NCBI GenBank assembly: GCA_900617105.1
Contig: UYFQ01000206.1
Coordinates: 1 to 37,756, forward strand
Source: Hydrurus foetidus
Lineage: Eukaryota
Length of the DNA stretch: 37,756 nt
Direction of reading: 5' to 3'
Shown here in pieces: positions 5,231 through 27,321 of the stretch (position 1 is its first letter; every line of letters starts with the position of its first letter). The notes below the pieces were generated by a model. It had not been told where the DNA came from and did not search any database. It saw nothing but the letters and a program-made list of their open reading frames with translations. The position numbers were made by a program, and so were the translations under genes.

Positions 5231-5242
5231 AATAGATCTATT
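5231..5242. other. Perfect 12-bp palindrome AATAGATCTATT at PBS position of Gypsy 1
   Basis: Read directly. Overlaps the last LTR base. No TGG tRNA-complementary start. Confidence 0.85.
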
Positions 5243-5457
5243 GTGGCCTCACTAGGATCTGGGCACTGGGAGCGGGACGGCTGGGAGCTGGGGCAAGGGA
5301 AAGTGGGCTACGGGAGCTATCGCTATGAAACAATGTGGTTAGCTTACAGATAAACACAGCAGGTATCATGGCAATGAATCGGATGGATCGGATCGAGGAC
5401 GATCCGATCCGAACGTACGCCTGTACCCGTACAGCCCGTACGGGTGTGCGGGTCACA
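5242..5457 (-). repeat. 5' LTR of Gypsy 1 (216 bp)
   Basis: TGTGGCC...GGTCACA imperfect inverted termini, upstream of gag, interrupts Gypsy 2 gag. Partner LTR not in window. Confidence 0.8.
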
Positions 5458-7500
5458 CCATAAGTGAATCCTTCCATTCCAGATGGAGCTCATTGTTGGC
5501 ATCTGTATAAAACAGGACTGGACAGGCCGCTACTTTGTGTGTAGTATGGCTGCATGAACGACATGGAGGTAGGGGAATCATCGCGATTGGACCCTTCAAA
5601 AGAGCACGCTTTGTTACTCCAGCCGATATTAAGGGCTGGGATTGTGTATTAGGAATACCAGCTTGTTTTTCATAAACTGAAGCTGCGAAGGATCGTTGAT
5701 GAATCAACGGCACCAAAGGCATCATCACATTGTGTGTGGATTTGACAACTGAGTAATCAGAGGACCTCAGAGCAAGTTCATTGTCTGAGGTAATACTGCT
5801 ATATCGTGCAATATGCTCGTTTAGTTCGCGAACGGACGCAATGCACGCTACAAAGCGTGTGTAAGCATCCTCCCAAGTTTCACCATGAGTAGGATTTGCT
5901 TTCTTTCTCTCGAAATAATCAGTTCTCAATTGACTATCCGGTTTTAACTTTTTCTCAATCGTAACTATTAACGCAGCATGCTGCGCCTGAGTGATTGGTT
6001 CAACGATGGAGTAATCGTGTGTTAACGATTTCATCGCGATAAATGTTTGTCTTTCAAGTGCTCGATCAGAGAAGTTGAATCTAATAGGAATTTGTGAAAA
6101 ATTCTCTACTAGTGTTCTAGCAATGTCGGGTTTAGCACCAAAGTACTTTGTAACGATTTGGGCAGCCTGAGCGACTGTAACGTGTTCAAGCCACGTCGCA
6201 AATTTATCTTTCGTAAGAAACACTTGCAAAAGCAAGTCAATTGGGATCACTTGCAAAAGCAAATTGTATGATCTCAGTTGCAGGATAAACTATTAATTGA
6301 CTTAAAGTAAAGTTATTTGCAAAAGCATTCGCATTTCAAGGCTAATTCACCCGAAATTTTGAATGAATCGAGTACAACAAGTGCACTATTTAAGTTAATA
6401 CCACCAGACATGCGTGTATTAAAAAGGTTCTCAAGTTGTTGTGCTCTAGTAATAGTAGGCACAGGTGCAACTTGGGTTGTCACATCAGTTATAGCACTTA
6501 AAAGTGCTATTTGTGATGGATTTTTCTCCGATGATTGCTGTAAAGCACCGGGCTCGGCGAGAAATTCGTCAACGAGTTCGTTGTCACAGAGTTCAGCATA
6601 GTTAGAATCAACTATCTCACCTAACTCTTCGCCAAAGTCACCAGGACTGGAGTCAAACTGGTCAACTATGTCTTCCATGATGGAGGGTGATTTTGTCGCC
6701 AATTTCAAATTGGGTTTCAAGACTTTTGGCCCGGTCAAGGATGTTCTCCCTGCTGAGAGCGGAGTCGCTGCAGCACGCAGGAGGGCAATCTTCGACTTTC
6801 TCCTTGTCAAAGGAGCAATTCTATCGAGATTTCCTACTCGTAATGTAGGATTTCTGTTCGGAGCTTTTTCGAAAGGAAAAATGTCTTCCGGCACCTCGTT
6901 AGAAGCGGGAGTTGCTTCAACAGGACATAATCCCCGGATGTTTTTATCGCTAGGCTGAGAGCTTAGGCTTAAATTGGAGTTTAACTCCGAACTAAAGTGC
7001 GAGTTTTTTCTCGGCGCAGTTTCTGAAACTGAAACTGGGAATTCTATCAGGAAATCGTTGTCCAGCAACAAATTCCGCAAGGTTTGAGTTGCAAACCCTG
7101 TTTCACTGCTGACTAAAGTCGCAGGAGGCCCTGGGAAGGGTGTTCTCGATTTGGAAGTCGGTCTCCTAGGCTTAAAAGTTGCAGTCGCCGAATTGAATCG
7201 GGGTTGTGTTTGGCGTGTGGAAGGAGTGGAATGGAGATTAGAGGTGGCAAATCGCGATGAACTCGCGTCTTCCCGAAGGAGCACAGGTCTTACGACTCTG
7301 GAACGACTTCTCGGTTAAGGAATCGAAGTTTCAACGATAGTTGGGAGATTTTGGCCCGTCGAACCGACTGCTGCCTCTCCTTCTACGGGAGTTGTATCTC
7401 TCCGAAACTGGAGTTCTTCGTTGATAAGACGAAGCTCTTCAAGATAAAGACGACCTCTGAGGAGAGGAACTTTCTGGAAGTCCTCCACGGCGGGATTCGA
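5458..7500 (-). pseudogene. gag: Gypsy 2 gag, interrupted
   Basis: ORFs 6313-7284 and 5453-6262. CRSCSHTTHKVAAC..DANNELHLEWKDS parallels Gypsy 1 CHTCGRQGHNRYDC..HCNNTCCTWSQS. Cut at 5458 by the Gypsy 1 LTR. Confidence 0.7.
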
Positions 7501-7576
7501 GCACTTATCTCAAGGAGATGGAAATGACAAAAAGGGTAGGGTTATAGAAGACGAAAAGAGGGAATTTAAACGGCTG

Positions 7577-7588
7577 AGTGACGTCACT
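7577..7588. other. Perfect 12-bp palindrome AGTGACGTCACT at PBS position of Gypsy 2
   Basis: Read directly. Same register relative to the LTR terminus TGTGGCC as in Gypsy 1. Confidence 0.8.
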
Positions 7589-7782
7589 GTGGCCTAGAAG
7601 GAATCTAGGCTAAAGATGGTGCGAGGGAGAATGCTGGTTAGCTTACCACGAAACTGAGTGGAGAATGTGTAGGATTAGTGTATGTGGCTAACCTAGATGC
7701 CTACCCAGAGTCCTACCCAGAGGTCTACGGAATCTGGGTAGTCTAGGTCGGAACTGGGACCAAGGTCCCCCAGACGACGACA
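7588..7782 (-). repeat. 5' LTR of Gypsy 2 (~195 bp)
   Basis: Plus strand TGTGGCC...CGACA. Shares the TGTGGCCT terminus and the 12-mer TGGTTAGCTTAC with the Gypsy 1 LTR. Sharp drop in GC after 7782. Outer boundary less certain. Confidence 0.65.
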
Positions 7783-7869
7783 GTTGAATCTTTATTTTCT
7801 GTTTTGCATAATTATTTCTAATTAATAGAAAACCTTCGAATGATTTTACTGAGTGAAATTAAGTTTGAA

Positions 7870-8012
7870 GGAAAAAGCATTCGAAAATTTTTAGAAATCA
7901 TTTTCAAATGGTCGAGCATTCGAGGGAAATTATTGGAAATCATTTGTAAATGCTTTATTATTCGAGGAAAATTTATCCTGACCCATTTGTGAAGGTAACA
8001 TCATTCGAAGGT
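7870..8012. repeat. Degenerate ~42-bp tandem repeat (about 4 units)
   Basis: (C/T)ATTCGA recurs at ~7878, 7917, 7959 and 8002, with similar CATTT-containing spacers. Confidence 0.5.
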
Positions 8013-8117
8013 TTCAGAAGAACATTCCTTCATATAACGTATAGTCCGGATGCTTCATTTGCCGCTATCTTCATAATCGGTGTTTTTTTATGAGGGTATC
8101 CGGTTCTCACTGGCTGA

Positions 8118-9449
8118 GGCCACGATTCACCGTGTCGATAGATTTTGACGATAGAATTTGACGATAGAATATTTCACGGTTTACAATTAATTCTATCGAG
8201 TTTCGTTTTCGGCAGCCCTTTTTTTCAGGTAGATTCCGGTTTCTATCGAAAAAAAAGGGCTGCCGAAAACGAAACTCGATAGAATTAATTGAAAACCGTG
8301 AAATAATCTATCGTCAAATTCTATTGTCAAAATCTATCGACTCGGTGAATTCTTGGTCCATAACACCTCGATAAATTTCTGCCAATCACAAAATACGGAA
8401 ACGGTCACTTCCCACATAAGTCTTCCAGTATTCTTCAATCCAATGCTATCGCAGTTCGCTAGATAAGTCGAGATATCATCGCACAATTTCTTCTGGGCTA
8501 TACATCAAGCCAACTTTTTGTCGAGCTGGTTAGCATTAGTGGGGCTGCGTTGTCTAGAGGTAATCTGGTGGATTCAAAAATTATATCGGATTTCTCTCTC
8601 AACGTCCTCGCAATCATGTTTTTTGCCAGCCATATCATACAGAAGCAATCTCAGCTAGCGGAGTCTCGTCGAATCTTTTCTTAACCTATAATAAAAGCAT
8701 ATTTTTGTTGCTCCACTAGCTGGCATCCTTTGTGTAAACATACATGAGCTAATCTGATTGAAAACCATTGAGGAGAAGTCATCATGCAACATGAAAATCA
8801 AAGGTGCAGGGAATCAAACGCATTTCCTAGACTCCGGCACGAGAAAAAGTCAACCAATTCTTAAGGAAAAAATATGGCACTTGAATGTTTACTGAAAGAT
8901 GAGCTCACCATCAACAGGAAGACTACCGACGGCTCCAGATGACCTGAGGTGCGCTCGCACTTTTTCCTGATTCTCGGGTAACAGAAAGAATCACAAAAGG
9001 GTCAGCAAGGTTTTGAAAATCATCAACATAAGTCGCTGCAAAAACAAAATTCAGTTGTAGTCCAGAACAACATTTGAGTATCGAACCTGGTAAAGTTGGG
9101 CTTCTGAAGAAGGCCAAGCTACTCAGAAGCTCCACCGCTAGAGAAATGGTGGAGCTCTGGTATCAGCTAGAATTATGCGCAGAGACGAACATACTGGATG
9201 ACAGTTGGGAATACTTCCAAACTTTGGGTATATTTTCACGGTTCTCACATCCGTAACAGGAAGAATTTAAAATACTGACGTTTAGTGCCCTATTATCATC
9301 AATAAATTTTTGTATTCAATTTCCTTCTACCAAATCACTAATTATTACATGGTCTACAACATGCGCTATTCAGAAGTCAATAACTCGATCATTGAAAATA
9401 GTTGTGGGTGAAAGGCTGAAAAGGTGTTATGGACCAAGGAATTGTGGCC
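8118..9449. mobile_element. PIF/Harbinger-type foldback MITE (~240 bp proper) with a nested insertion in its right TIR
   Basis: ~110-bp arms 8118-8226 and 8248-8351 plus 9444-9449. Termini GGCCAC...GTGGCC. 3-bp TSD TGA (8115-8117, 9450-9452). Confidence 0.85.
8352..9438. mobile_element. Non-autonomous TIR element, 1087 bp, superfamily unassigned
   Basis: Perfect 17-bp TIR CTTGGTCCATAACACCT (8352-8368, 9422-9438). 5-bp TSD GAATT (8347-8351, 9439-9443). Removing it restores the host MITE TIR. Confidence 0.85.
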
Positions 9450-9476
9450 TGATTTCAAAAAGAAGATTTTTAGGTA

Positions 9477-9809
9477 TTACGACCGCAGAATAAAAAATAA
9501 AATGTCCTCTCCAAGGGAGGTTTTATGAACTTACGCAAGGGGGGTACACCCATTTGAGCTCGTAGGGGAAGAAATATTTATTCCGGAGGAGTTTCGGAAA
9601 CGACAGGAAACCGTCAAATGGAGCCTGGGATTTGACACCTTCAGTGTGGGGGGAAAAAAATGAAAAATGGGGAATGTTCCCCGACCCCCACACAGAAGAT
9701 TTCAAATCCCAGCTCCATTTAGCGGTTTCCTGTCGTTTCCAAAGTATTTGAGCACCCCCTTTGATTTCATTTTGAGCGTCGGACCGGACATTTTATTCTG
9801 CGGTCGTAA
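9477..9809. mobile_element. MITE with TA flanks (Tc1/mariner-like), ~333 bp
   Basis: TIR TTACGACCGCAGAATAAAA / TTTTATTCTGCGGTCGTAA flanked by TA. Second internal inverted pair GGAAACGACAGGAAACCG..AAATGGAGC..TGGGATTTGA at ~9596-9635 and ~9702-9740. Confidence 0.75.
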
Positions 9810-9913
9810 TACAACGAAATACACATTTTCCGGAGAATACGGCTATACGTTTTGGTCTTTTCCTTCACAAAGAAATATTTCCGGATAAAAAAACCTTCAC
9901 GAACCCTTCACCT

Positions 9914-10243
9914 TGTTGACGGATCTTCGGTTCAGCCGACACGTACGTGGGTGAGTGTACAGCGGTTGAAGAACGCTCGGTCAAGGCTCGTGAAATAAGC
10001 TTTGGGTTGTCAGTAATCACTTGTTAATTGACTGTGCTTCATCCCTGCTGAAGTCCCCGAGTCCCTTTCAACGCAACAACAAAAGACATCCTACACTACT
10101 TCTTGAAGTACCGAGCCGAAGCACGGGTCCACACATCGTCGTCACGCATGCACGCACACACACACACACACTAATCCGTACGTCCGTACGAATGCATAAG
10201 TACACAGATTGTGTTCGTGTCATAAACTAAGATATCTCCAACA
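9914..10243 (-). repeat. Copia 3' LTR
   Basis: TGTTGACGG...CTCCAACA, direct repeat of 15175-15504. Preceded on the minus strand by a short purine-rich tract GGCATAGGGGTG (10244-10255). Confidence 0.95.
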
Positions 10244-10309
10244 CACCCCTATGCCACATCACAATCATCACTGTTCACGCATCACGCATAATTCTTCACA
10301 AGATAATGT

Positions 10310-11953
10310 CTAAACTACTGCCTCATCGTCCCAGCCCGTGAGCCCCTGTCTCTCGCACTTGAATTGTGTCCCCTGCAGCGGCTTCGTCAGAAGATTCGCG
10401 TACATTTCCTTGGTCCCGAGGTGCCTCACTCTCGCTTCCCCTTGATCTACTCTCTCCTTAAGCCAGAAGTACTTGATGGCTATGTGCCGGGTGCGCTCCG
10501 CCGCCGACCGTCCTCTTTCGATGAGCGACATGCATGACATGTTATCTTGGTACACGGTGACCGGACCGCACGCGTGTCCTTGCCCTATGATAAAATGTCT
10601 GACGTGTAATGCTTGGTTAGTGGAGTCAGATAGTGCCACCAGCTCCGCCTCCGTGCTCGACTTGGTCACGATCTGCTGCTTGGCTGACTTGCTATGCACC
10701 GCACCACGCTCTCCGATTACCACACAGCTCCCGGTGTGCGACTTCCCGTCTGCATGCACCCCATACGCTGCATCGATAAGTACACTCACTACGATCCCCT
10801 TACTCCCAGCTGCGAACACTAGCCCCCTGTCCCTCGTCGCGCTCACATACTTGAGCAGTCTGTCCAGCTTCACGAGGTCGTCTGATGTGCACCGAGTTAC
10901 CCGAGTCGCCAAATATGCCACCGCCGTCAGACAGTCCGGTCTTGCACGCTTCGCGAGGTACAGCATCTTCGCCACTAGGCGATGGAACTTGATACGCTGC
11001 TCCTCGGTGGCCATCTCTGCGTCCTCTCTCACTTCGAACAGTCCCTCTGTCGCCGGCGTCCTCGCACCCCCCTTCGCCTCGCTTTCCTTGAGCATGTCCT
11101 CCACGTAGCCGGTCATCGACACGCGTGCAACACCTGTGGTGGTAAGGTCGAACACCATGCCTAGGTAGTTTACTACAGGTCCATCCTTCCTAGTGATATC
11201 GCCGTACCTTCTTTTCAGCCCACTAGCCACTGACTCAATCATCGCACCATTCTTGCTAGTCACCAGTAGGTCATCCACATGTACGGCGATGGTGCACTGC
11301 ACCCCGTATTCGTCATGTTTGTTAAACACGCATATGTCGTGCGCATTCGGCACATACCCTAGTTCCGATAGGCTTACCCTCAGATTCTCGTACCATAGCG
11401 CCGCCGACTCCACACACCCGTACAGCGCTTTATCTAGTCGCACCACCACGCATCCTTTGTGGTCTGTGAACCGCGAGTATCCCGGTGACAGTCTGATCAT
11501 GATGTTCGACATGTTTCTGTCCAACCTCATATGTACAGGTAGTCCTGTTGTCATATCTGCGTTCAGGAAAGCACCGCTGATATCAATCACAGTGATGCTT
11601 CTCGTCTCGTGTGCTGCTATGCTTAGCAGAGTGAACACTGAACACGTCGCAACAGTAGGCGCGGATAGGTCATCATACAGGTCACGATCCTGCTGATCGC
11701 CTCCCGCGACGAGGCGTGCCTTCAGCTTCTCGAACTCACCACTCGCGAGGAACTTCTCCTTAAGGAACATACTCGACCTGATGATACGCCGCTTCTCGTC
11801 CGACGATAGCTCTTTCACGTCGACCGGTTCCCACACCTTTTTGTCAACCATTTGTCGTAACTCTTTCTCTATCACACTCACTGCAGCATCACCCCTTGTG
11901 CGCAGCGCTTCGTTCACCGAGATATTGAGCACGTAGTCGCCCCAGTCCGTACC
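10310..11953 (-). CDS. pol: Copia reverse transcriptase + RNase H
   Basis: KARLVAGG, DISGAFL, LDKALYG, VHVDDLL; RNase H IDAAYG, SSTEAE, YQDN, NLLTKPL. Confidence 0.95.
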   Translation of the reverse strand, partial: GTDWGDYVLNISVNEALRTRGDAAVSVIEKELRQMVDKKVWEPVDVKELSSDEKRRIIRSSMFLKEKFLASGEFEKLKARLVAGGDQQDRDLYDDLSAPTVATCSVFTLLSIAAHETRSITVIDISGAFLNADMTTGLPVHMRLDRNMSNIMIRLSPGYSRFTDHKGCVVVRLDKALYGCVESAALWYENLRVSLSELGYVPNAHDICVFNKHDEYGVQCTIAVHVDDLLVTSKNGAMIESVASGLKRRYGDITRKDGPVVNYLGMVFDLTTTGVARVSMTGYVEDMLKESEAKGGARTPATEGLFEVREDAEMATEEQRIKFHRLVAKMLYLAKRARPDCLTAVAYLATRVTRCTSDDLVKLDRLLKYVSATRDRGLVFAAGSKGIVVSVLIDAAYGVHADGKSHTGSCVVIGERGAVHSKSAKQQIVTKSSTEAELVALSDSTNQALHVRHFIIGQGHACGPVTVYQDNMSCMSLIERGRSAAERTRHIAIKYFWLKERVDQGEARVRHLGTKEMYANLLTKPLQGTQFKCERQGLTGWDDEAVV

Positions 11954-12183
11954 ACACAAATGAATCTGGAATTGTCGATGAGAGAGGAGTACCGGTAGAC
12001 TATGCAGCGGCAAGCGGCGAGTGGGACGACCACACTGATTCGAGGGATGCACTGAGTGGTGCGAATGAGTCACAACCGGCGTATGCGAGTCCTCAACGGT
12101 ACGGACTGAATAAGCATGCAGTGATAGATTTCTTCAGGAACGGAAAAGGGACAGCGCTGCTGACGCGCAACTACGACGGAGAC
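11954..12183 (+). other. 230-bp inverted segment of Copia pol (IN-RT linker)
   Basis: Flipping it yields a stop-free in-frame join SMNG-HTNESGIVDE...ALLTRNYDGD-GTDWGDYVLN and removes the TGA at 12134-12136. Confidence 0.85.
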
Positions 12184-14015
12184 GGCCGTTCATGCTGGCT
12201 ATCAGGTCGTCCATTGCGTGGTCGGACTCAGTATCGTGTGCATGATGTGTTGGTTCACTATGATGCTCGCTTATGTCTAGCTGATTCGGCTCGTACAGTG
12301 TCTCACCGCTATCGTACTGCTGATCCCGGTAGTCACCCCCGTTTTCAACCGGTTCACCCCCACTGTCCGGTCTCTCGTCTATCGCTTCCCCATGCTCATC
12401 TCCGTCTAGCGGTAATATGGATGGGTCTACACCGTCGTTCACCGTAGGCTCGATCGTGTCTGGTAGATTCCCCCTAGAGTCTCCGTCCTGTTTGTACGAC
12501 AACGGTCGCTCGTACAGCTCACCTTTACCTTTCACACGCCCGTCTGCTAGCGCAAGTTCGTTAAGCCTCTTGATTACCGATTCTGGCATCGGTAATATTC
12601 TAAATTGGTCTCTATTCACCAGTCGTCCAGTACTCAGAGAGAGCATTCTCACGGACCCTGTACGGTTGCCAAGCGGGAGCATCACCACGCAGTCTTCTGT
12701 GCGACTCCCTAGTCCTGCATCTGTGTTTGGTACGGTACACTGCGCGTAGTCGCCAAACGAACAACGAAAATCTCGCTTACCATCCGGCTTCCTTCCTATA
12801 AATGCCTCGCGGGGACTTGGGCCGTATCCCCGTAAACCGGCCGGTTCGTAGTTCAGCCTAGATATACAGTACAGTACACACATGGCTATACCCACGGTCG
12901 ACAGGGTGAACGGCAGGTGGTACGCTACGTGAGCCCGTACCCTTTCTTTAATAACTCTTATTCTTCTCTCGATTCTAGCCACGTGACCCCCAGCTCCGCT
13001 CACGTCGACTTCAACTCCGAGTTTTCCCAACTCGTCGACAAGGCTGGTGACCGCCCCCTCTCCGTCGCTCATGATGATGGACGTCCGAAAGTTTTGAGAC
13101 GCGAGGACACCGAGGAAATGGTTGATGCCGATCTTGACTTGCCCTGCTGTCCTCGCCGGCTTCTTTAGATCAGCTGTGTTAAGACTGTATGCGATAGTTA
13201 GTCCTAACGGAGTAGCCACCCCAACTAGAATAGCTAATTTCTCTATAAACATAATGTCAATCGATAACACCTGATCCCGTTGTAAGATTTTTGTGCTCAC
13301 GGTTATATCGGCGACGGCTGTAGCTCTCTTCGTTGTTTTACCCTTCAGCGATGCGATGTCCTTCCCCCATATCGCGTCTGCGATCTGGAAGTCTCTTGCT
13401 GTCACGTCAAAATTGCTCCCGCTATTGACGATTGACATCGCCTGTTCTACCGTCGGGAATCCCATTCTGGCCAGTAGCTCGCGGGCACGCCTGCCCTGCT
13501 CTATTTCGCGTTTCGTAAATGCCTTTAAATTCTCGACTACTGTCGTGACAAGTGCGCTCCCGCACTCCATCTCTCTCCAATCACAGGAATAGAATCTTCC
13601 CTCGCTCCCAACGACACGCTTTCTTCCGAAGCGATAGATCCTCGTGCTTCCCTTCGGCTGGAGAGTGAAGCAGTCGCTCAGGTGGTCGTACCGAATCGAC
13701 GCCCCTGAGTCGACTTGGGAAGCAAATGACAGAATATTTGCTGAGGCTGAACCGCTGTAGTACACCGTCCCAAATTCGCCGAACTCTCCTTCCCGATCGA
13801 CTGACACTCCCGCTCCCTGTTGAATTCCGCTCACTTTTATTGTTCTCTCGGACTTTCTAACGTCGGTAAGCAAATCAGGATTGCTGAATATATTTAGTGA
13901 CGCCTCGTTGTCTAGTAGCACGTCAAATCGCGAGAAGCAGCACACTTCGTCTGCAGCCACAAGTGCTACTCCCCACTCGCTCGATTCACCTTCGTACTCC
14001 TCGTCCGACTCCCCG
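12184..14015 (-). CDS. pol: Copia protease + integrase
   Basis: VLLDNEASLNIF protease motif; DDE core SIDIMF / SDGEG / IERRIR; SPREAF..KPD..FG motif. Confidence 0.9.
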
Positions 14016-15150
14016 TCGTGACGTGGACTTTTTCCGATGACGATTTCTTTTGTGGGCAATCCCTTGCGTAGTGCCCTTTAGTTTCACACTTGTAACACTC
14101 CACATCCGCTATTGATTTCTTACTGCCCCCTCCGGCTTTCCCCGCTTTCTTCTCGGCCGGGTCCTTGGTCATAGTGACATGTGCACCTTCGGCAACGTAC
14201 GCCGCGTTCGCACCCGCAGGTGTCGGAGTGGGTGTATGGACGGGCACTCGGTCATTCCACTCTGACGAGATGTGGAATGCTAGGGCGAGCGTGGTGGGGA
14301 ACGCACCCGGTTTGCGCCGTAGCGCGTCGTGCTTCATATCGTCCAACATGACCTTGTACCGACGGGTGTCGAGTTTCCCTAGGAAGTCCAATGCTCGCTT
14401 TGACTCCGACACTGCGGCGATCCCCACGGCTGCGTTCGCTGTTACCTGTTCATCAAATCTGTTCTTGAAGGTGACGATATGTTCCCTCTCACCTTGCCTC
14501 ATTGACCCGTACTTACTCTCCTGTTCGTGTTGGTTGTACTCTTGCAGTGACTCGTCTCCACCGTACATGTGTGTGAGGTGGGTTCTTCTGATGAGTGTCC
14601 ACAGCAGAACACAATCCAGGGTGTCATACGCGGTCTTGAACTCTTCCTCCTCCCTCACCCTACTCTGCGATAGTAGCGACATACGCTTCCACATCATGGG
14701 GTACATTGTACGTTCGTTCTCACGTTGCGTTTTGACATCTCTCTTCCTCTGAATATAATCATCCTCCTTAAACTTCGCTCTCGAACGTTCCGACGCTTTT
14801 CGTCTTCTCTCGTTTCTCGCCAGTCTGGCGGCGACACGAGCAGGTTTCGCAGCAGCGTACGCTACGGCCTCTGGGTCAGGTGCTGGCTGTGGTTGATCGT
14901 CGCCCCCGTCGTCGTCGTCCTCATCCGAGCTGGAGCTCTCCGACGACGAATCCGCAGGGTAATCCCTGTATGAAATTCTCGGGAGCTCATATCTCACGTT
15001 GGTGGAGAAGAACATGCCCACTATCCCGTATAGCTCGGTTACTACCGTCTGCATGTGTTCTCTCCATCTTATGATGTTGTTGTGTTTGCCGTATTGAAGC
15101 GTACACTCCTCTGTACTTTTGAAAGCTTCTGCGGCGCGTTTGGGAGGCAT
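13966..15150 (-). CDS. gag: Copia gag with CCHC zinc knuckle
   Basis: ATG at 15150 (MPPKRAAE), MRQGERE motif, CYKCETKGHYARDC. One base out of frame with pol near 14012. Confidence 0.9.
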   Translation of the reverse strand: MPPKRAAEAFKSTEECTLQYGKHNNIIRWREHMQTVVTELYGIVGMFFSTNVRYELPRISYRDYPADSSSESSSSDEDDDDGGDDQPQPAPDPEAVAYAAAKPARVAARLARNERRRKASERSRAKFKEDDYIQRKRDVKTQRENERTMYPMMWKRMSLLSQSRVREEEEFKTAYDTLDCVLLWTLIRRTHLTHMYGGDESLQEYNQHEQESKYGSMRQGEREHIVTFKNRFDEQVTANAAVGIAAVSESKRALDFLGKLDTRRYKVMLDDMKHDALRRKPGAFPTTLALAFHISSEWNDRVPVHTPTPTPAGANAAYVAEGAHVTMTKDPAEKKAGKAGGGSKKSIADVECYKCETKGHYARDCPQKKSSSEKVHVTTGSRTRSTKVNRASGE

Positions 15151-15174
15151 TGGAATGCCTGCTCCAGTCAATTA

Positions 15175-15504
15175 TGTTGACGGATCTTCGGTTCAGCCGA
15201 CACGTACGTGGGTGAGTGTACAGCGGTTGAAGAACGCTCGGTCAAGGCTCGTGAAATAAGCTTTGGGTTGTCAGTAATCACTTGTTAATTGACTGTGCTT
15301 CATCCCTGCTGAAGTCCCCGAGTCCCTTTCAATGCAACAACAAAAGACATCCTACACTACTTCTTGAAGTACCGAGCCGAAGCACGGGTCCACACATCGT
15401 CGTCACGCATGCACGCACACACACACACACACTAATCCGTACGTCCGTACGAATGCATAAGTACACAGATTGTGTTCGTGTCATAAACTAAGATATCTCC
15501 AACA
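15175..15504 (-). repeat. Copia 5' LTR
   Basis: Direct repeat of 9914-10243, followed by TSD CACCT. Confidence 0.95.
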
Positions 15505-15768
15505 CACCTTCCCTTCGTTCTGCCTGTGGAAACTTCACAGAATTTGAAAAATCGATTGATTCAAAGAGTCCCAACTCTGAGCTGTGAAGAGTTCTTTCAA
15601 ACTGGAGAAACGAGATCGATCGGAGAAGAACCCATCATAAAGTGATCACGAAGTCGATAGCGTATACCAGTGCAAATGTTGTTTTCGGGTGGGAGTGTTT
15701 TGGAATGCAAATTTTGACGGAGTTACAATTATCAAGTGAGATCATGATATTTTGATCTTTTCTGCACG

Positions 15769-18472: not shown

Positions 18473-19148
18473 TGTCGGTTTGACGTCCGCTGTGATTTTA
18501 TTCCAAATTAATTGCCGCTTAATGACAAAATTGCCGAAATGTCTCGTATAATAGAAATCGTCACAACAGCCAGGATAAAACACCGATTCTGAAGACGTAG
18601 AGGATTTCCTTCAAAGACGGATAGTAATCACAAGAAGCAGGCAGCAGGCAGCAGGTCGCAGAGATGGCTTTTGATCGGGCGGGAAGTTTTTTATTAAACG
18701 GATCTATCCGGTTTCGGGAAGGAACCATTGAAGTTTAGTACGATTGTATGTTGTACATATAGGATAAGAATTGGGATTGCTCCACTTTGAAATTTGAAAG
18801 ATTGTGTGAGATGTTTTTATTTTTAATGAATGAGAATCAATGTGTGAATTGTGAGAATCGTGAACGATAAGATATGAAATGAATTGCAATTTGATTGAAC
18901 TATGAATTTCAACTTTGAGCTGCGTCGGATAGGTATCTAAGCTGCGTACGCGTGTATACACTGAAAAGACCGTGGTAGAAGCTGTTCTAGCTTTGAAATG
19001 AATTAGTTGTGCTCGCAGAGGAGATTTCGGAAAGAAAACATTTTATCTGGGAGTAATTACTTCTTCCATGTATCCCACCTTTATCAATATATATTACGGT
19101 TTCCAGCTTCCCGCGAATCGTCATTCCATGAAATCTATGAGCCAGTAA

Positions 19149-19368
19149 GGCGTGTCGGTTGCAAAAATTGCGCGGCGAAGTCCAAAATCCGCAGTGTACA
19201 GTAATCTCGATGGTCGATCACACTCGCGCATCGCACATATCACTCTCAAACTACACCAATATCGCTGCTGCGACAGTAGAAATTTTTGTGCTACAACAAG
19301 GACAGTCTCAGCAAACTGTCGTGATATTTTTCTACTGGACCCCAGCATCGAATCTAGTCAATTTGCCC
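19149..19368 (+). repeat. Left TIR (220 bp)
   Basis: Reverse complement of 29056-29275, about 4 mismatches by eye. Confidence 0.95.
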
Positions 19369-19410
19369 ATCGCCGTGCTGTCTCTCAATACAGCATTGAT
19401 CTGTAAAAGG

Positions 19411-21332
19411 ATGGGCATCAAGGATCTTTCGAAGCAGTTGCGAGTCTCCAACAAAGCCACTTCAAAGTTATCGGATTTGAAGGACCAAATTCTGGGCGTT
19501 GATGCACCTATCTGGCTGAACAGAGCTATTTTCAGCTCTCCCGAAATTTGTCATGGTTTTCATCAGGAACCGAAAGTGAGCCTAGCGTATATTATTGACA
19601 TGTACATGGACTCTCTGCTGTCAATATTCGAAGCAAACAGTATAAAGTTACTTTTTGTACTCGATGGCGCAAGGAATCCTCTGAAAAAGGACACGAATAT
19701 AGCTCGGGAAAAAAAAAACGACGACGCTTACATTGAAATGGAGAATTTGATAAAAACCAACGATACAGAGAATGTAAAAAGAATTAATCAGTTAAAGAAG
19801 CAAGCTCTATATGTAAGAGAAGACATCGTCGCTGGGTTCGTTGCCTGGTGCATCAGAAAGGATCTAAAATTTGTCTGTGCTTTGATGGAAGCCGAATGAG
19901 AGCTATGTAGACTGGAAAGCGACGGAGTTATCGATGGAATTCTGTCTGATGACTCTGATTGCCTAGTCTTAGGCTGCAAACTTGCTGTCCAGCTTCTTGA
20001 GAAGAATGCTGATCCTATGGGATTGAATTGCTCGTTCGTGCAAGGGTCCCGTTGGTACGACTTCGTCAGTAACGAAGTAATCGATCAGCCAACTATACCG
20101 GAGCTATCGGAATTAGCCGTACTTATGGGTTGTGACTATCTTGATAGAGCCTATGGCAATACAATCTTTAAAAAATTAAGACATTTTTTTCTAGATGGAG
20201 GAGCGATCGGGACATAATTCTGGGCGAAATAGAAACCAAAGGGCAAGTTGGAGGGAAAAGAATGCGTGCTGGCTTGGTGGGATACAAACAGAATTTTGAT
20301 TATGCTGCCAACATATTCCAGTTTGCGCCGTGTTTCGTCGTTAGGAGTCGGCATTTAGAGGTCACAGCACGAGATTCTTTCTGGTCGAATAGCTATGACG
20401 TAGTTAGGGGAAATCTAAGATCACTGCCCCCTGATTCCTGTGAGAGGTCTTTGTTTGGATTCGATCCCGACGATCACATACCGAATGACATAATCCAGTG
20501 TGATTTATTTACTGCTACAATTTGGATCAGAACATTATTACCATTCGAGAAACATATCATACCTCCCCCAAGAAATTCCGAGAACCAGATTTTACCCTGG
20601 GGTTGTTATCTAGATTTCGAAAAAGTTCCAGTTCCTATGCAACCGACAAGGGCACTCATCTGCTATTTGAAATGTCGCGGACTATCACCTAGAGCATCTA
20701 ATACAATGCTCTAAATTAATTCTGCTGTCGAAAGAGTGATAAATCAAGGCAATAGGGCTCCAGCAATAATCCCTTCCACAAATGACGAAGCTGCTGGTCA
20801 CTACGTAAATCTATAAGTGCTCACTTGCGGAGAGACGCTTATTTGGCTAAATGCTAGCGAGGATGTGTTTCGGCTGCTGAAAGATTTGACAGTGAAGTTC
20901 AATGATACGTTTATTGACGAAAGTTTTGGTGTAGGGAGAAATGGAGTTAGAGAACGTGCGTGGGGGAGGGTAAATGCAGGTCATTTTGATTTAAGTACTC
21001 CAAGATCATGTGAATGCAAATGTAGAGGTAGAGACGGTATTGTTAATGTTCGTATATTTAGTATACAATGTACTCCATCAATGAAAAAAGATGCCTATAT
21101 CGTGCACTTAATTTTGGCAAAAGACGGTGATACCTTTATGCCTGGACCAGCTAGCCGTTGCAATTGCCCTGTAGGTAGGCTATTTTGCAGTCACCTTTTG
21201 GCTTTCATAGTTTTGATGGGAATGATTCAGATGCTCAATGAGAGTGAAGACTATGATTGGTTTACTAACAATATGCCTGAACTCGTCAAATCTCTACACT
21301 CATCATGCATTCCATTTGCTTATGTTTTTTAA
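19411..21332 (+). pseudogene. EXO1/XPG/FEN1-family 5' nuclease fused to SAP-like and SWIM zinc-finger motifs; premature stops and frameshifts
   Basis: MGIKDL..ILGVDAPIWL (XPG-N), FVLDGARNPLK, ALMEAE*ELCRL..DGILSDDSDCLVLGC (XPG-I), LAVLMGCDYL (H3TH), LICYLKCRGLS (SAP-like), SRCNCPVGRLFCSHLLA (SWIM CxCxnCxH). Confidence 0.88.
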
Positions 21333-21356
21333 TGCGACGACATTATGATTAATACT

Positions 21357-21726
21357 TCATGTTGAATTCAATTTTTGTAATCTCTCGGCTGATTGAAAGG
21401 TTGCATCAAATGCATGCCCCCACTTAATCATTGAATCTAAGATAGAAAAATAATCGTACGGTATAACATCAGTCAAAGCTTCTTGATCTGTTACCCTTGA
21501 AAACACTGCCTCTGATGACCAACGCAATCGACAAGCTACTAAATCTTTACTGATTTCATTTTCTTCGAATTGATCTCGACCTGTTAGGAAATGTAGCGTT
21601 ATTTGTGCATTAACATTCGGGTAACTCGGTGCGTCGAAATAAAATCCCCTGTCGGCCAATACCGCACCCCTTATAGGGATTTTTGCCAGTTTTGTTAGTA
21701 GCATCTCCCCCTGCATCCCCACGTAA
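21357..21726 (-). pseudogene. Transposase C-terminal part (second D and E of DDE)
   Basis: VLADRGF...HFLTGRDQF....RLRWSSEAVFSRV matches the ISL2EU/Harbinger DDE_Tnp_4 pattern (ADRGF..PFL.G..Q...R..VE....R). Confidence 0.85.
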
Positions 21727-21730
21727 GTGT

Positions 21731-21927
21731 TATAGCTCGGGATGGGAAAGGAAGAGGCGGAAGACTAGGAGTGGTAGTTAGTTACAGCTAGGAAGCTAGA
21801 AGCTAGGGTTAACTTCTACGTGGAGGCTGTAAGTGGCTACGACGATACAACAGACTGTAGTGTACGGTGGGTAGTGTACCGTAGTACTATCCGGTAGGAT
21901 CGGGACCTTGGACCCGGAACTACCACA
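21731..21927 (-). repeat. Gypsy 3 3' LTR
   Basis: Direct repeat of 27121-27317; element-sense termini TGTGGT...GCTATA. Confidence 0.95.
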
Positions 21928-21952
21928 CTACCCCCACTTATCCTTCTTTCTC
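21928..21952 (-). other. Polypurine tract
   Basis: GAGAAAGAAGGATAAGTGGGGGTAG immediately 5' of the 3' LTR on the minus strand. Confidence 0.85.
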
Positions 21953-22287
21953 AAAGAAAATCTAAACTACACTAAACTATGGCGAAACCCCCGTTTCTAT
22001 GTTTAAAAATAACAATATTTAACATAAATTATAACGGAAAACGATAACCAAAAAAATATGTACAATATTTTTTAAAAAATGTGAAATTATATACAAAAGA
22101 AATTACAAAGGGGTTTCGGAAATGGTGAGAAAGATAAGGATAAGGGAGTATGTACAAAACAGAATCGTTCTGTTGTACGAGGGTCAAACGTAATTATGTC
22201 AGATTTTTACTGACTAAAAAACCATAAAAATCCCTCGTGAGGGCAAAAATTAGGCCAAAAAATCTTCAAAAGATATTACGTTTGAGC

Positions 22288-22413
22288 TCAAACCTCGGTG
22301 GTTGATCCCTCAATATTCCTGGGAACAAAACGTGACATGTTATTGTTCCTCAGGTATGCATGGAGTGCATCACAGAGCCGGAGATTCTTCCGAGGCTCCC
22401 ATGTATTATGTGA
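22288..22413 (-). pseudogene. C-terminal remnant of integrase chromodomain
   Basis: Manual translation SHNTWEPRKNLRLCDALHAYLRNNNMSRFVP...; NTWEP..NL is the chromodomain signature. Confidence 0.8.
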
Positions 22414-22416
22414 GTG

Positions 22417-22806
22417 TGTTCTTGTTTTACCAAGACATACGACCCTATTGGAAACACTGTCAAACCGGATGTTGACTTCTTGTGTTTTTCATCACATTTA
22501 CGAAGTGAGTCGATTGCTGCATCGAGGACTTTGTCCTGTGTTTCGATTAAATCAGCAATATATGTTGAATTTGATGATGATACCAAAGGATACAACACGG
22601 AAAGGGCCTTTCCATTTAGTGTGTAATCGAGTTGGAGGATGTTCTTGTTTTACCAAGACATACGACCCTATAGGGAGCACTGTCAAACCGGATGTCGACT
22701 CTTTGTGTTTTTCATCACATTTCTGAAGTGAGTCAATTGCTGCATCGAGGACTTTGTCCTGTATCTCGATTAAATCAGCAATGTATGTTGAATTTGAAGA
22801 TGATAC
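22417..22806. repeat. 167-bp direct duplication (22417-22583 / 22640-22806), about 92% identical
   Basis: Offset 223 bp, about 13 substitutions counted by eye. Confidence 0.9.
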
Positions 22807-25800
22807 TATCGGTAACAAATGAGGTGTTAAAATCCCTCTATTCAAATCAAGTTTATCCGCGAATAGGATAGATGCTGGACTTGCACCCGTACGTTTATTA
22901 ACTGAACTATTTATAATTCGTTGTACGAACGGAATGCATTTTGCATAATGGACAAGAGACGGTGTATCGAACACCAGTCCTTTTAAATGTCTATTTATCT
23001 CTTTATTGACTCGTTCAACAATCGCATTCTCTTGAGAGGAGTAAGCTAGAGTGAGGTTATGGGGCGTACCCGTAAGATCTAAGAACTCTTTTATGAGATC
23101 ATTAGCGAAATGGGATCCACGATCCGATCTTATCATGTTTGGCGAACCGAATCGACCAAAATGTGTTAATAAATTCTCCGCTGCAGATTCGGCAGTAGCG
23201 TCCTTACACCAGAACATTTCTGTCCATCTGGAGAAGGTGTCAATTATGACGAGAATATACCCCTTATCGGGAAAAGGACCCACATAATCAATATTCAACG
23301 TATCGAAAATTGCGTGAGTAGAAGTTGAAAAATGGGCTGCATTGATTTTCGCATCAACCGCACTTAGTTTTTGACAACAAGGACAGTTCCGTATGTATGA
23401 ACGTACGTGCTGTTTCATATTTTTCCACACTTGGTTTAGACTGTAAAGTCGAGTGAGGGTTCGGTCGACACCGTTGTGACCCACAATTGCATTGTGGCAC
23501 ATCTGGATATGAAGTATTTGTTCATCTGTGGCCGGTTCGATAACCGTTAAAGCCGCCACACTTGTGGAAGAAGATGAAGATGATGATGAACAACCATCTC
23601 TGACAATTGTCAATGGTAGAGCAATTTCAGTAAGATTTGGACATAAACGTGATAGCGCATCGGCTAATTCGTTATCAGATCCTTTAACAAAATGAACGGT
23701 GAAATCGAGTTCTTGCATTGCAATGAACCACCGTGCTACCATCGAAGTAGGGTTTTGTTTCATATATGTCAAATTCATATGATCAGTATGAATAGTGAAT
23801 TTTCTATCTCGGATAAGGTAATCCAATTGTTGGCAGCAATAAAAGATAGCGTAAGCCTCCTTTTGTATTGTTGACCAATTAATCTGAGATGCAGATAGAG
23901 ATTTGCTAATAAAAGCGATTGGCTTCCATTCGTCATTAATGACTTGGAATAATACACCACCGATTCCATAATCAGATGCATCAGTATATAATCTGATGGG
24001 TGAAGTTTCATCGATGAAATACATCAATGGACAACGAGATACAGCGATCTTTGTCTCATTGAATGCGTTTGTCCCCTCGAGGGTCCAAAAAATTGGAGAG
24101 CGTTTAACCGCCTTTGGGTCCACCATCATGTGAAGTGGTTTTACCATTTCTGAGTGAAAAGGAACGAATTGACGGAAATAATTGGCTAAGCCAAGGAATC
24201 CCCGTAATGCCGTAACTTCTTTTGGAAGTGGAAAGTTGAGTACTGTCTCAATCTTTTCTTTCGACATGGATAAACCATCTTTGTCGATGACTCGTCCGAC
24301 GTATTCGATACGTTTAAGACCGAATCGGCATTTCTTTGCTTTGAGTTTAAGATTTTTAAGTCTAAATCTCTCAAAGACTTTCCTCAAGTTCAAAAGAAAC
24401 TCTGCTTCGCCCCGGCCATATACAATGCAATCGTCGAGATACATCTCGCAACAGCTGTATATGAGACCGTGAAGGACCGTTGTCACCATCTGCTCTTGAA
24501 AGTAAGAGGGGGCACGACAAGGGCCAAAAGGCAATCTTGTGAATTGAAACACCCCCATGAAACATATAAATGCCGTATAGATTCGGTGGGGTGTATATAA
24601 GGGAGCTTGATGGTAACCCGCGGTTAAATCCATCACCCCATAAATATCCGGTTTTCGATTACCGATCCTCTCAAAGAGGTGTTTGATATTTGGTAGTGGA
24701 AAGGAGGCCGGCTCAATGCATTCATTGAGTGCTCGATAATCGATGCAGGTTCGATATGTATCGGCTGTCTTATTTACCATTACAGGATGACTGTAGTATG
24801 CAGCGTTCGACCTCTCGATCACACCATCTTCCAACATCTCTTCGATAGAAGTGCGGAGATAATGTTCCTTTTTAGAGGATTGGGGTCGCACTGGTGCGTG
24901 GTTCGATGGAACCTCCCATTTCTGCCGTGGCAGGTTTATCTCAAACGGCTTGAGGTCAGCAGCTTGCGGAGCTAGCTTATCACTGAATATATCAGCGAAT
25001 TCAGAACAGAGAGTACGGAGATCGTTTTGAAGGCTTTCATCTCCTTCAAAATGAATCTGAGACAAGAAATCATCCGGCCCATTGGGCGGTACATTCCGGC
25101 ACGTCTTGTCACGCAAGAAAGGTGCGAAGGTATCAGTTTTATCATCGTCAATCTCGTCAACGGAGAGTGCGACACCGCTTGGCCATATGGCTTCCGCGTC
25201 ATAGTCTGATGTAACAGTGTCCCCAGAGGTATGTGTGAGGATGGGAATCGAGTCACCATCTAGGTGCGGGGTATCACCCGTACGTTTCGCGAGTACAGTC
25301 GAGACACTGTCCAGTCGCTCACAACCCACATCACCACATGGACTTTGGGTCGCGACTCCCTTGGTACCATCCTGGGTAACGTTACACGTGAACGTTGTAT
25401 GACAACCTGACCCTACGACTTCCTTGGTTAGAGGTGCGTGCAGAATGGCCTTCTTAGGTGTTGGCTTTGGGCAGAGACCGTATGGTTCTTTCCGATCCGA
25501 AAGTCTTGCTTTGGTGATACCCTTTAACATATCGTATGTAGGTGTAATCGACTCTACTTCCGGTTCTTCGGGTATGAAACCCTCAGATATCACACGTCTG
25601 GTGTATTTGTGCCAGTGAAGCGGGTCAAGCTTGGCTATCGCTTCCCTTTCTTCAAACTCGAGCCAACGAGCATCACACTTTCTTTTGTTCTCGGCACTAA
25701 GCTCGGGAGAAATGCCAAAAGCAGAAGGTGTTAATGACATAAAATCATATTTGTTTACAGTTTTACGACTTAACAAAAATTCGATAACCGTGTTCCTATT

Positions 25801-25809
25801 AACTCGCAA
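22552..25809 (-). CDS. pol: Gypsy pol: protease tail, RT, RNase H, integrase (1085 aa, N-truncated)
   Basis: IDYRALN, DLTAGYHQ, YLDDCIV, TDASDYGIG, ADALSR, HHCC (H-NAIVGH...CPCC), DYVGP/SDRGSHF/VERVN, KWKGPF. Confidence 0.97.
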   Translation of the reverse strand: MRVNRNTVIEFLLSRKTVNKYDFMSLTPSAFGISPELSAENKRKCDARWLEFEEREAIAKLDPLHWHKYTRRVISEGFIPEEPEVESITPTYDMLKGITKARLSDRKEPYGLCPKPTPKKAILHAPLTKEVVGSGCHTTFTCNVTQDGTKGVATQSPCGDVGCERLDSVSTVLAKRTGDTPHLDGDSIPILTHTSGDTVTSDYDAEAIWPSGVALSVDEIDDDKTDTFAPFLRDKTCRNVPPNGPDDFLSQIHFEGDESLQNDLRTLCSEFADIFSDKLAPQAADLKPFEINLPRQKWEVPSNHAPVRPQSSKKEHYLRTSIEEMLEDGVIERSNAAYYSHPVMVNKTADTYRTCIDYRALNECIEPASFPLPNIKHLFERIGNRKPDIYGVMDLTAGYHQAPLYTPHRIYTAFICFMGVFQFTRLPFGPCRAPSYFQEQMVTTVLHGLIYSCCEMYLDDCIVYGRGEAEFLLNLRKVFERFRLKNLKLKAKKCRFGLKRIEYVGRVIDKDGLSMSKEKIETVLNFPLPKEVTALRGFLGLANYFRQFVPFHSEMVKPLHMMVDPKAVKRSPIFWTLEGTNAFNETKIAVSRCPLMYFIDETSPIRLYTDASDYGIGGVLFQVINDEWKPIAFISKSLSASQINWSTIQKEAYAIFYCCQQLDYLIRDRKFTIHTDHMNLTYMKQNPTSMVARWFIAMQELDFTVHFVKGSDNELADALSRLCPNLTEIALPLTIVRDGCSSSSSSSSTSVAALTVIEPATDEQILHIQMCHNAIVGHNGVDRTLTRLYSLNQVWKNMKQHVRSYIRNCPCCQKLSAVDAKINAAHFSTSTHAIFDTLNIDYVGPFPDKGYILVIIDTFSRWTEMFWCKDATAESAAENLLTHFGRFGSPNMIRSDRGSHFANDLIKEFLDLTGTPHNLTLAYSSQENAIVERVNKEINRHLKGLVFDTPSLVHYAKCIPFVQRIINSSVNKRTGASPASILFADKLDLNRGILTPHLLPIVSSSNSTYIADLIEIQDKVLDAAIDSLQKCDEKHKESTSGLTVLPIGSYVLVKQEHPPTRLHTKWKGPFRVVSFGIIIKFNIYC

Positions 25810-27109
25810 GGTTAACGGGATAGTATGACATTCGACCTCATAAGAGGTGAATCATATAAATAGGATCGAACGTACGAGAGCCTATTGAATTCAATGTATT
25901 CCCGCGGAATATTGGTTTGTTTCGCTTTAGCACTGAGCTTTAAGCAACATGAAACCAAAGACTGTGAGGCGAAGCCATTCCACTTTTGAGTATTGCCTTG
26001 CAATTTGTTATCAGCATTATACTCGATAAGTACCTTGTTCAGTTTTTTTTTTTTAAAAAAAAAATGTTTGTATGCAATCGTCAATTCTGACGTTGATTTG
26101 ATGAAATTACATTCTGAAGAAGAATCTTTAAATCTGCAAAATGACATCTTATTTTGCAAATATACTAAACGATGACCCACCCCTATCGGGAGTCGAACCC
26201 CGAATATTGTGTGGGTGTAGAATCTGTCAAGATATTATTTTAATTCCTCAAGATATCACTAACGCGCGCGATTCAAGTGTTCTGAATGTGCGATTCATGT
26301 TACCATGACGAAAGTGCATCTAGCGAGAGGTTTTGACCTTATTTAGGTGAAAAACTGATGAAAATCAGTCGCAAACTACGATGTCGCGCTGAGTCCATAA
26401 CTCTGCATGATGATATCGCTTTTATCGAGTAATCGTTGCAAACGATTCTCTAGGATATGAGAGACAATTATGCAGAGGGGCGATCGTGTCCGCCTCCGAT
26501 TTCTCTGTGTATCTGCTGTCAAAAGACAAGCAGAAATCACCTGCTGACACAATGATATATCTCTTCGGAGAAATATGATTGTAACTCATCGAAGACAGAA
26601 GCCCCTCGTCAAAAAAATTTGCGAGAGCTTCGCCTCGTTCGCGTATCGGGTACTTTACGCAAGTAACAGCGAATGAAAGAATTTCAACCCACTCTTGTCG
26701 AGAAAAATTCTATGGCGTGAAAGCCGAATTTTGGGTGATCGAAAATTTTGTGTCCTGTTAAGGATGAAGGAAGAACTTCCTGTCGACCAAAAGACGTCCT
26801 TAGACTAATCTGATGTCGCTAGCAGTGGAACCGGTGTCCAAATTGCTATTGAAGAACTCCTTAATTTCGAGTTGGGAAGCCTCTCGCGACTTCGACCAAA
26901 AACGAACTTTTGAAGACACCTTTCGGAGGGTTTCAAGCAGGAAGCGGCTACGCCAAACTCCTGTAAACTTAAACTAAGTTCTCGGAGCTTCGGGCTCAAC
27001 GAGAAAACGACTCCTCGGAAGTCGTGGAGTGAATCTACTCCTTTGGAAGTCTATCTAAAGTTTGGGACGAGTAGAAAGGTAGAGAAAGAAGCGAAGAAGG
27101 ATGAGCGGG

Positions 27110-27121
27110 AATAGCGCTATT
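27110..27121. other. Perfect 12-bp palindrome AATAGCGCTATT at PBS position of Gypsy 3
   Basis: Read directly. The LTR boundary here is independently fixed by LTR-LTR identity and the TSD. Confidence 0.9.
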
Positions 27122-27317: not shown

Positions 27318-27321
27318 GTGT

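What the first reader, a model, noticed from the sequence alone, without database searches (positions are those of the whole stretch)
5231..27121. Three different Gypsy elements replace the tRNA primer-binding site with a perfect 12-bp palindrome: candidate tRNA-independent, dimer-based priming system
Seen: directly inside each 5' LTR, overlapping the terminal A and running 11 nt into the leader, lie AATAGATCTATT (5231-5242), AGTGACGTCACT (7577-7588) and AATAGCGCTATT (27110-27121). Length and register are identical, the sequences differ by compensatory changes, and none begins with the TGG that pairs with a tRNA CCA end. A 12-bp palindrome at a fixed position has roughly 1/4096 chance each. 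Known: most LTR elements prime on tRNA, while Tf1/sushi-group chromoviruses self-prime by pairing the transcript 5' end with the PBS followed by RNase H cleavage. Gypsy 3 retains a chromodomain remnant, so this lineage looks chromovirus-like. Inference: selection is on self-complementarity, not sequence. A loopless palindrome is best satisfied between molecules, so two co-packaged genomes could pair PBS-to-PBS, and cleavage of one strand would leave a 3'-OH pointing into U5 of the partner. I know no described LTR lineage working this way, but could not search.
Basis: partly seen in the sequence, partly recalled or inferred. Interest (0 to 1): 0.93.

Follow-up and report, generated by a model that had tools for sequence, protein, structure and literature searches.

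The report
Palindrome replaces retrotransposon tRNA primer site
Three jumping genes in this window, and nearly all relatives where the site could be read, carry a short self-complementary palindrome where such elements normally bind a tRNA to start copying themselves, so two copies of the element's RNA likely pair there and one would likely be cut to prime the other, a step that is untested.

Summary
Observation confirmed. Three chromodomain-type Gypsy elements each carry a perfect 12-bp palindrome starting on the last base of the 5' LTR. For Gypsy 3 the partner LTR and a 4-bp target-site duplication fix that boundary. The feature is lineage-wide: 42 of 45 readable junctions (RT-RNase H 42-57% identical to Gypsy 3) are perfect palindromes of 10-16 bp, with 26 different sequences. 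In 32 LTR-end windows, 28 held a 12-16 bp site against 0.74 expected. The centre is symmetric too (24 of 32 against 14 of 225 in pol). None has a TGG tRNA site, a Tf1-type self-primer in the LTR (0 of 31) or a GalEa second arm (0 of 45). A weak U5-leader stem flanks the palindrome, resembling Tf1's cleavage substrate formed between two RNAs. Best reading (0.5): the site is its own primer, in a genome dimer. Cleavage and priming are inferred only. A palindrome in this register is published for fungal GalEa Copia elements (Donnart 2017), with no mechanism; my ten paper searches found none for Gypsy. This scan noted the same pattern before on other DNA (microsporidia, other protists, Copia elements). 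New variant of a known kind; interest 0.72.

The parts
5231..5242 (-). Gypsy 1 palindrome at the primer-binding position (last LTR base + 11 nt)
   Evidence: contigs in 3 of 4 runs show a family variant with the central GATC replaced by CCGG (loose ends)
5242..5457 (-). Gypsy 1 5' LTR (TG...CA), inserted in the gag region of Gypsy 2
   Evidence: depth step, polypurine-tract loose end after 5457, and Gypsy 2 contigs starting at 5458; inner end inferred
2386..4943 (-). Gypsy 1 gag-like region, interrupted by stop codons
2..1783 (-). Gypsy 1 RT and RNase H, running off the window
7577..7588 (-). Gypsy 2 palindrome at the primer-binding position
7588..7782 (-). Gypsy 2 5' LTR (TG...CA)
   Evidence: contigs end at 7782 or start at 7783, depth step; inner end inferred
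5458..7314 (-). Gypsy 2 gag-like ORFs, cut off by the Gypsy 1 insertion
   Evidence: 49% identity to the N-terminal part of homologue P0012
27110..27121 (-). Gypsy 3 palindrome at the primer-binding position
27121..27317 (-). Gypsy 3 5' LTR (197 bp, TG...TA)
   Evidence: identical partner LTR and target-site duplication
22552..25851 (-). Gypsy 3 pol ORF: RT, RNase H, integrase; most of gag is not recognisable upstream
22309..22428 (-). Gypsy 3 chromodomain remnant, after an internal duplication (22412-22818)
   Evidence: Pfam Chromo E 0.00043, below the curated cut-off; intact in homologues
21928..21952 (-). Gypsy 3 polypurine tract
21731..21927 (-). Gypsy 3 3' LTR
21727..21730 (.). 4-bp target-site duplication GTGT (partner 27318-27321)

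Best explanation
These Gypsy elements carry a palindrome in place of the tRNA site, and it likely serves as its own primer: two packaged RNA genomes are predicted to pair through it, and the element's RNase H would likely cut one of them so that its 3' end primes DNA synthesis on the other. Shown: position, symmetry, sequence turnover, and absence of TGG, of a Tf1 self-primer and of a GalEa second arm. Predicted by folding: a 10-16 bp intermolecular duplex, a small loop at the LTR-end C or T, then a short U5:leader stem on each side. Inferred: a cut just 3' of the palindrome gives a 3'-OH paired to the last LTR base of the partner. A second cut, or some other stop, on the 5' side is needed so that plus-strand strong-stop DNA ends after the palindrome. 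Because the plus-strand copy of the site comes from the primer and the minus-strand copy from the template, a single mutation would be mirrored and then repaired to the old or to a new perfect palindrome, which would explain the fast paired changes.
For: 42 of 45 junctions are perfect palindromes starting on the last LTR base, with 26 distinct sequences and 13 distinct central 4-mers. All 22 of the 27 RT clusters (70% identity) with a readable junction have one. The centre is symmetric in 24 of 32 arm-only matches near LTR ends against 14 of 225 in pol. The edge is sharp: pairing extends to the second-last LTR base in only 9 of 42, about chance. The LTR end was fixed without using the palindrome in four families: Gypsy 3, L005/L006, L031, L075/L077. 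The palindrome alone forms no stable hairpin in 42 of 44 cases but a duplex of -4.4 to -19.3 kcal/mol. The dimer gains a median 12 kcal/mol over two folded monomers. U5 flank with own leader flank: -3.39 kcal/mol against -2.02 +/- 0.23 for swapped partners, beyond all 200 swaps. This geometry matches the Tf1 'pretzel' duplexes (bioRxiv 10.1101/2022.12.06.519325, passages), and Tf1 RNase H cleaves such RNA to make its primer (PMC7175516, passages). Sister pairs: 24 of 26 palindrome differences are mirrored; L028/L029 differ by 0.9% in RT DNA yet by a full pair.
Against: No RNA, cDNA or biochemical data were available; the runs laid were contigs only. Full symmetry is equally required if the primer snaps back in cis, so it does not prove a dimer. 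The model needs an asymmetric outcome from a symmetric duplex and an unexplained stop for plus-strand synthesis. Three junctions are imperfect (L022 and L030 with a terminal mismatch, L077 with a G.U). Several all-A/U duplexes are weak (-4 to -7 kcal/mol). The flanking-stem signal fades with longer flanks (14 nt: own -4.72, best shuffle -4.79). For 14 of the 45 junctions there was no LTR start fixed by the polypurine tract; three of these (L031, L075, L077) had an independent LTR end and the other 11 were located by the palindrome itself. Related elements are not independent. The L028/L029 change could be CpG decay, and quasi-palindrome correction in DNA (recalled) can also give mirrored changes.
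Confidence: 0.5

Rival explanations
1. The palindrome is a dimerisation or packaging signal only, and priming uses some other unknown RNA or a protein.
For: Palindromes drive genome dimerisation in retroviruses (raised by Donnart 2017) and, through tRNA ends, in Ty3 (PMC5371799). The dimer is favoured in folding.
Against: It would not need exact anchoring on the last LTR base with a sharp edge. No other primer site is seen, and an external primer would have to track 26 different sequences.
Confidence: 0.17
2. Snap-back priming in cis: the RNA is cut 3' of the palindrome and the 5' piece folds back to copy its own U5; a second, intact RNA is the template for the rest.
For: Monomer folds often show a 4-bp stem on the U5:leader stem. 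Second-strand transfer would also demand a symmetric centre.
Against: The palindrome hairpin alone is unstable in 42 of 44 cases, and dimer formation is favoured in all 44.
Confidence: 0.13
3. A small RNA made by the host from the element's own transcripts (siRNA-like or a degradation fragment) is the primer; symmetry lets sense fragments work.
For: It explains symmetry and sequence turnover without an RNase H cut.
Against: It does not explain the conserved flanking stem. No small-RNA data were available.
Confidence: 0.1
4. The palindrome is a double-stranded DNA site for a dimeric protein such as a transcription factor.
For: Gypsy 2 contains TGACGTCA, a CRE-type bZIP site (recalled motif). 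Most arms are AATA...TATT.
Against: The central bases vary freely yet stay symmetric, and the length varies from 10 to 16; a sequence-specific protein does not demand that. It leaves priming unexplained.
Confidence: 0.05
5. Conventional priming by a whole or half tRNA, or Tf1-type priming from the transcript 5' end.
For: These are the known modes (PMC6317226). Host tRNAs could not be tested: no genome is held and the window has no tRNA gene.
Against: 0 of 46 tabulated junctions have TGG in the first 8 nt. 0 of 31 LTRs hold a complement of 10 nt or more; mean 5.3 against 5.3 in shuffles. The sequences change between near-identical sisters.
Confidence: 0.05

Closest known systems
Conserved Hairpin Site of fungal GalEa Ty1/copia elements (Donnart et al. 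2017, PMC5445492; passages and first part of the Discussion read; supplements not read)
   Same: No tRNA site; a motif directly after the 5' LTR that is palindromic when the final A of the LTR is included; possible larger stem with a bulge at the LTR junction.
   Different: Copia of fungi against chromodomain Gypsy here. There a 10-bp palindrome with two sequences in 85% of families and a second arm (CHSeq2) 12-41 bp downstream; here 10-16 bp, 26 sequences and no second arm (0 of 45). The paper proposes no priming mechanism.
Tf1/sushi self-priming chromoviruses (Tf1, Tcn1, Maggy, sushi-ichi); read through PMC7175516, PMC6317226 and bioRxiv 10.1101/2022.12.06.519325 (passages); primary papers not held
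   Same: Gypsy with chromodomain, no tRNA site, primer site abutting the LTR, about 11 nt, predicted flanking duplex with U5.
   Different: The Tf1 primer is the first 11 nt of the transcript and its PBS is not palindromic; here no LTR holds such a complement (0 of 31).
Dictyostelid Skipper chromoviruses (PMC5006619, passages)
   Same: Protist chromodomain Gypsy without TGG and without an LTR self-primer; novel priming suspected.
   Different: A polypyrimidine stretch, not a palindrome; the word does not occur in the main text.
Retroviral dimer initiation sites and Ty3 tRNA-mediated dimerisation (PMC5371799 passages; DIS as discussed in PMC5445492)
   Same: A palindrome joins two RNA genomes.
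   Different: There it exists in addition to a tRNA site and elsewhere in the RNA; here it occupies the primer site itself.

Membership tests
Ty3/Gypsy LTR retrotransposon | LTRs, target-site duplication, polypurine tract, domain order RT-RNase H-integrase | tested here: met
   Gypsy 3; best solved relative is Ty3 RT
Chromovirus (structural sense) | Chromodomain after the integrase | tested here: met
   Remnant in Gypsy 3 below the Pfam cut-off; above the cut-off in 3 of 3 homologues scanned
Chromovirus (phylogenetic sense) | RT groups with named chromovirus clades | not testable with these tools
   No named reference RTs were returned as usable sequences; the tree holds only this lineage
tRNA-primed LTR elements | TGG within 0-5 nt of the LTR end | tested here: not met
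   0 of 46
Half-tRNA-primed elements | PBS complementary to an internal tRNA segment of the host | not testable with these tools
   No host genome, no tRNA gene in the window
Tf1/sushi self-primers | 10 nt or more in the 5' LTR complementary to the PBS (criterion of PMC6317226) | tested here: not met
   0 of 31 full LTRs; longest 8 nt
Tf1/sushi self-primers | Duplexes flanking the primer:PBS helix ('pretzel') | tested here: inconclusive
   A U5:leader stem is enriched over swapped controls, but it forms with the leader, not with an LTR segment
Tf1/sushi self-primers | RNase H cleavage of an RNA duplex makes the primer | not testable with these tools
   Needs biochemistry
GalEa Conserved Hairpin Site | Palindrome that includes the final A of the 5' LTR | tested here: met
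   42 of 45
GalEa Conserved Hairpin Site | Second arm (CHSeq2) 12-41 bp downstream | tested here: not met
   0 of 45, 1.41 expected by chance
GalEa Conserved Hairpin Site | Ty1/copia GalEa clade | tested here: not met
   RVT_1 with integrase after RNase H

The most novel reading that the evidence does not exclude
A fourth way to start LTR reverse transcription, after whole tRNA, half tRNA and Tf1 self-priming: one packaged genome is sacrificed to yield a palindromic primer for the other, through a Tf1-like cleavage substrate built from two RNAs. The primer site then rewrites itself symmetrically each cycle, which makes families recognise their own RNA, and the same device would have arisen or persisted in both Gypsy and Copia across many eukaryotes.
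Probability: 0.45. Interest if true: 0.9.

Novelty: new variant of a known kind. Interest (0 to 1): 0.72.

Why it matters
How tRNA-less elements such as fungal GalEa start reverse transcription has been open since 2017. This lineage supplies many natural paired variants, a defined register and a predicted structure, so the question becomes directly testable with short RNAs and RT. If dimer priming holds, genome dimerisation and priming are one event, the element needs no host primer, and PBS-based annotation misses a widespread class.

Tried and rejected
No whole genome is held, so host tRNAs and other copies could not be examined. Viral contigs gave 0 loci with the single protein and 1 with the alignment. 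Read-level variation inside the Gypsy 1 palindrome, and its inner LTR end, remain open beyond. L039 was first tabulated and then dropped, because its LTR end aligns with relatives upstream of a probably chance 10-mer; it remains among the 32 windows of the shuffle test, counting only in the 10-bp class. L004, L038 and the downstream copies in L031 and L075 were treated as 3' LTR plus flank and left out of that test; they show no anchored palindrome and no gag hit. Counting all four as misses gives 28 of 36. L066 (3.1 kb upstream of RT, no candidate site) is undetermined. Near-duplicate loci were represented once. No two-LTR junction retaining a primer was found. The tree is the quick version; the careful search did not finish. 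Host identification failed; 'stramenopile or chrysophyte-like alga' is my recalled impression only. Primary Tf1 papers were not held. Goodwin and Poulter 2001, cited as proposing novel priming for Tcn2-5, was not seen and may bear on novelty.
Full report
Observation. The three 12-mers are present and are perfect palindromes. All three elements are on the minus strand. Gypsy 3 is bounded by identical 197-bp LTRs (21731-21927, 27121-27317; TG...TA) and a 4-bp target-site duplication, so its palindrome begins on the last LTR base. It encodes RT, RNase H and integrase, has a chromodomain remnant and lacks a recognisable gag over most of the upstream region. Gypsy 1 (LTR 5242-5457) sits inside the gag region of Gypsy 2 (LTR 7588-7782). 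Contig ends, depth steps and a polypurine-tract loose end support their outer ends; the inner ends are inferred. The window has 22 perfect palindromes of 12 bp or more, so the anchoring is what needs testing. The host is an unidentified eukaryote; runs holding Gypsy 3 are listed as biofilm, sediment, freshwater and glacier metagenomes and one coded organism.

Relatives. A protein search gave 1472 hits, nearly all of the 120 listed carrying a chromodomain. An alignment of 38 of these sequences retrieved 79 loci, with RT-RNase H 42-57% identical to Gypsy 3. I located LTR starts by the polypurine tract followed by TG and followed them into the leader. Of 46 tabulated junctions one, L039, was dropped. 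Of the 45 left, 42 are perfect palindromes starting on the last LTR base: 35 of 12 bp, 4 of 14, 2 of 10 and 1 of 16, with 26 distinct sequences. Three are imperfect. In 32 windows 120-450 nt after an LTR start, 28 hold an anchored 12-16 bp palindrome against 0.74 in shuffles. Four further stretches judged to be 3' LTR plus flank were left out and have none. All 22 of 27 clusters at 70% identity with a readable junction carry a perfect site; the other five are too short or undetermined. In four families the LTR end was fixed by a 3' LTR running into flank, and it agrees with the register.

What is selected. If only hairpin arms or a protein site mattered, the central four bases would be free. 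They are symmetric in 24 of 32 arm-only matches near LTR ends against 14 of 225 in pol, while taking 13 different sequences. Pairing extends one base further into the LTR in only 9 of 42, so the edge is sharp. Sister elements on the tree (quick method) swap palindromes by mirrored changes. Over 16 hand-picked, overlapping pairs, 26 of 190 palindrome positions differ, 24 of them in mirrored pairs, against 161 of 708 in the adjoining U5 (summed). L028 and L029 differ by 8 of 900 nt in RT yet by a full pair. In the Gypsy 1 family itself, contigs from 3 of the 4 runs laid show the central GATC replaced by CCGG.

Known modes tested. No junction has TGG in its first 8 nt (0 of 46). No full LTR has a Tf1-type complement of 10 nt or more (0 of 31; mean 5.3 against 5.3 shuffled), and no GalEa-type second arm is found (0 of 45). 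Half-tRNA priming could not be tested without host tRNAs, but the rapid symmetric turnover argues against any fixed external primer.

Structure. The palindrome alone gives no stable hairpin in 42 of 44 cases and a duplex of -4.4 to -19.3 kcal/mol. The 10 nt before it pair with the 10 nt after it better than with swapped or shuffled partners (-3.39 against -2.02 and -2.14 kcal/mol); the effect weakens with longer flanks. The strongest paired positions are U5 -5/-6 with leader +2/+3, and position -2 is unpaired in 35 of 44 predicted dimers. A dimer thus has a central helix, a small loop and a short stem on each side. In Tf1 the primer:PBS helix is likewise flanked by duplexes, one of which pairs the sequence downstream of the primer with a PBS-adjacent sequence (bioRxiv 10.1101/2022.12.06.519325, passages), and RNase H cuts between bases 11 and 12 (PMC7175516, passages). 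The dimer here would present the same local geometry in trans; this is inference.

Mechanism. Most likely (0.5) the site is its own primer in a genome dimer. Shown: anatomy, symmetry, turnover and the failed membership tests. Predicted: the duplex. Inferred: cleavage, priming and self-rewriting. Weak points: a symmetric duplex must yield one intact template, and plus-strand strong-stop synthesis needs a stop that tRNA modification or Tf1's natural 5' end provides elsewhere (recalled). Rivals: dimer signal only (0.17), snap-back in cis (0.13), host-made small RNA (0.10), DNA protein site (0.05), tRNA or Tf1 mode (0.05).

Comparison and novelty. Donnart et al. 2017 (PMC5445492; passages and first part of the Discussion; supplements not read) describe the same register in fungal GalEa Copia elements, with a second arm, note the likeness to dimer initiation sites, and state that no model fits. 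Bivalve TRIMs have loosely similar hairpins (PMC6934838, passages). Skipper has a polypyrimidine stretch instead (PMC5006619, passages). Plant surveys list tRNA, half-tRNA, self-priming and 6% undetected (PMC6317226, passages). Ten searches found no palindromic primer site in Gypsy elements and no dimer-priming model, but the library lacks most subscription papers, including the primary Tf1 work and Goodwin and Poulter 2001. Earlier notes of this scan report the pattern in microsporidia, other protists and Copia elements; they are unchecked, and none matched this genome or homologue P0001. Verdict: a real, lineage-wide feature; a new variant of a known kind, with a possibly new priming mechanism; interest 0.72.

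Noticed in passing
window 9914-15504 (minus): Copia element with near-identical 330-bp LTRs (9914-10243, 15175-15504) and a 5-bp duplication CACCT. Its leader has no TGG at the LTR end and no anchored palindrome, only a 5-bp stem across the LTR end, so its primer is also unexplained.
   Followed up: partly
window LTRs and many of L005-L079: A TGTAA-type motif lies about 40-110 nt before the LTR end in 19 of 32 LTRs; possibly a polyadenylation signal (UGUAA in some algae, recalled).
   Followed up: partly
window 21731 / 27121 and relatives: LTRs end in TA rather than CA in 11 of 46 junctions, including Gypsy 3, which also has a 4-bp target-site duplication.
   Followed up: partly
window 19143-19368 and 29056-29281: Inverted 98% copy of 226 bp; the first overlaps an ORF with an XPG N-terminal domain followed by further ORF pieces, possibly a DNA transposon.
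   Followed up: no
L001, L044, L045, L047, L048, L050, L055, L060, L063: Many relatives assemble as circles or tandem units sharing one LTR; these may be one-LTR cDNA circles or collapsed repeats.
   Followed up: no
window 4900-5457: The Gypsy 1 family has roughly a hundredfold higher summed contig depth than Gypsy 2 in all four runs laid, suggesting a very large family; depth is no copy number.
   Followed up: no
window 8130-8350: Long inverted-repeat sequence resembling a miniature DNA transposon, with raised depth.
   Followed up: no
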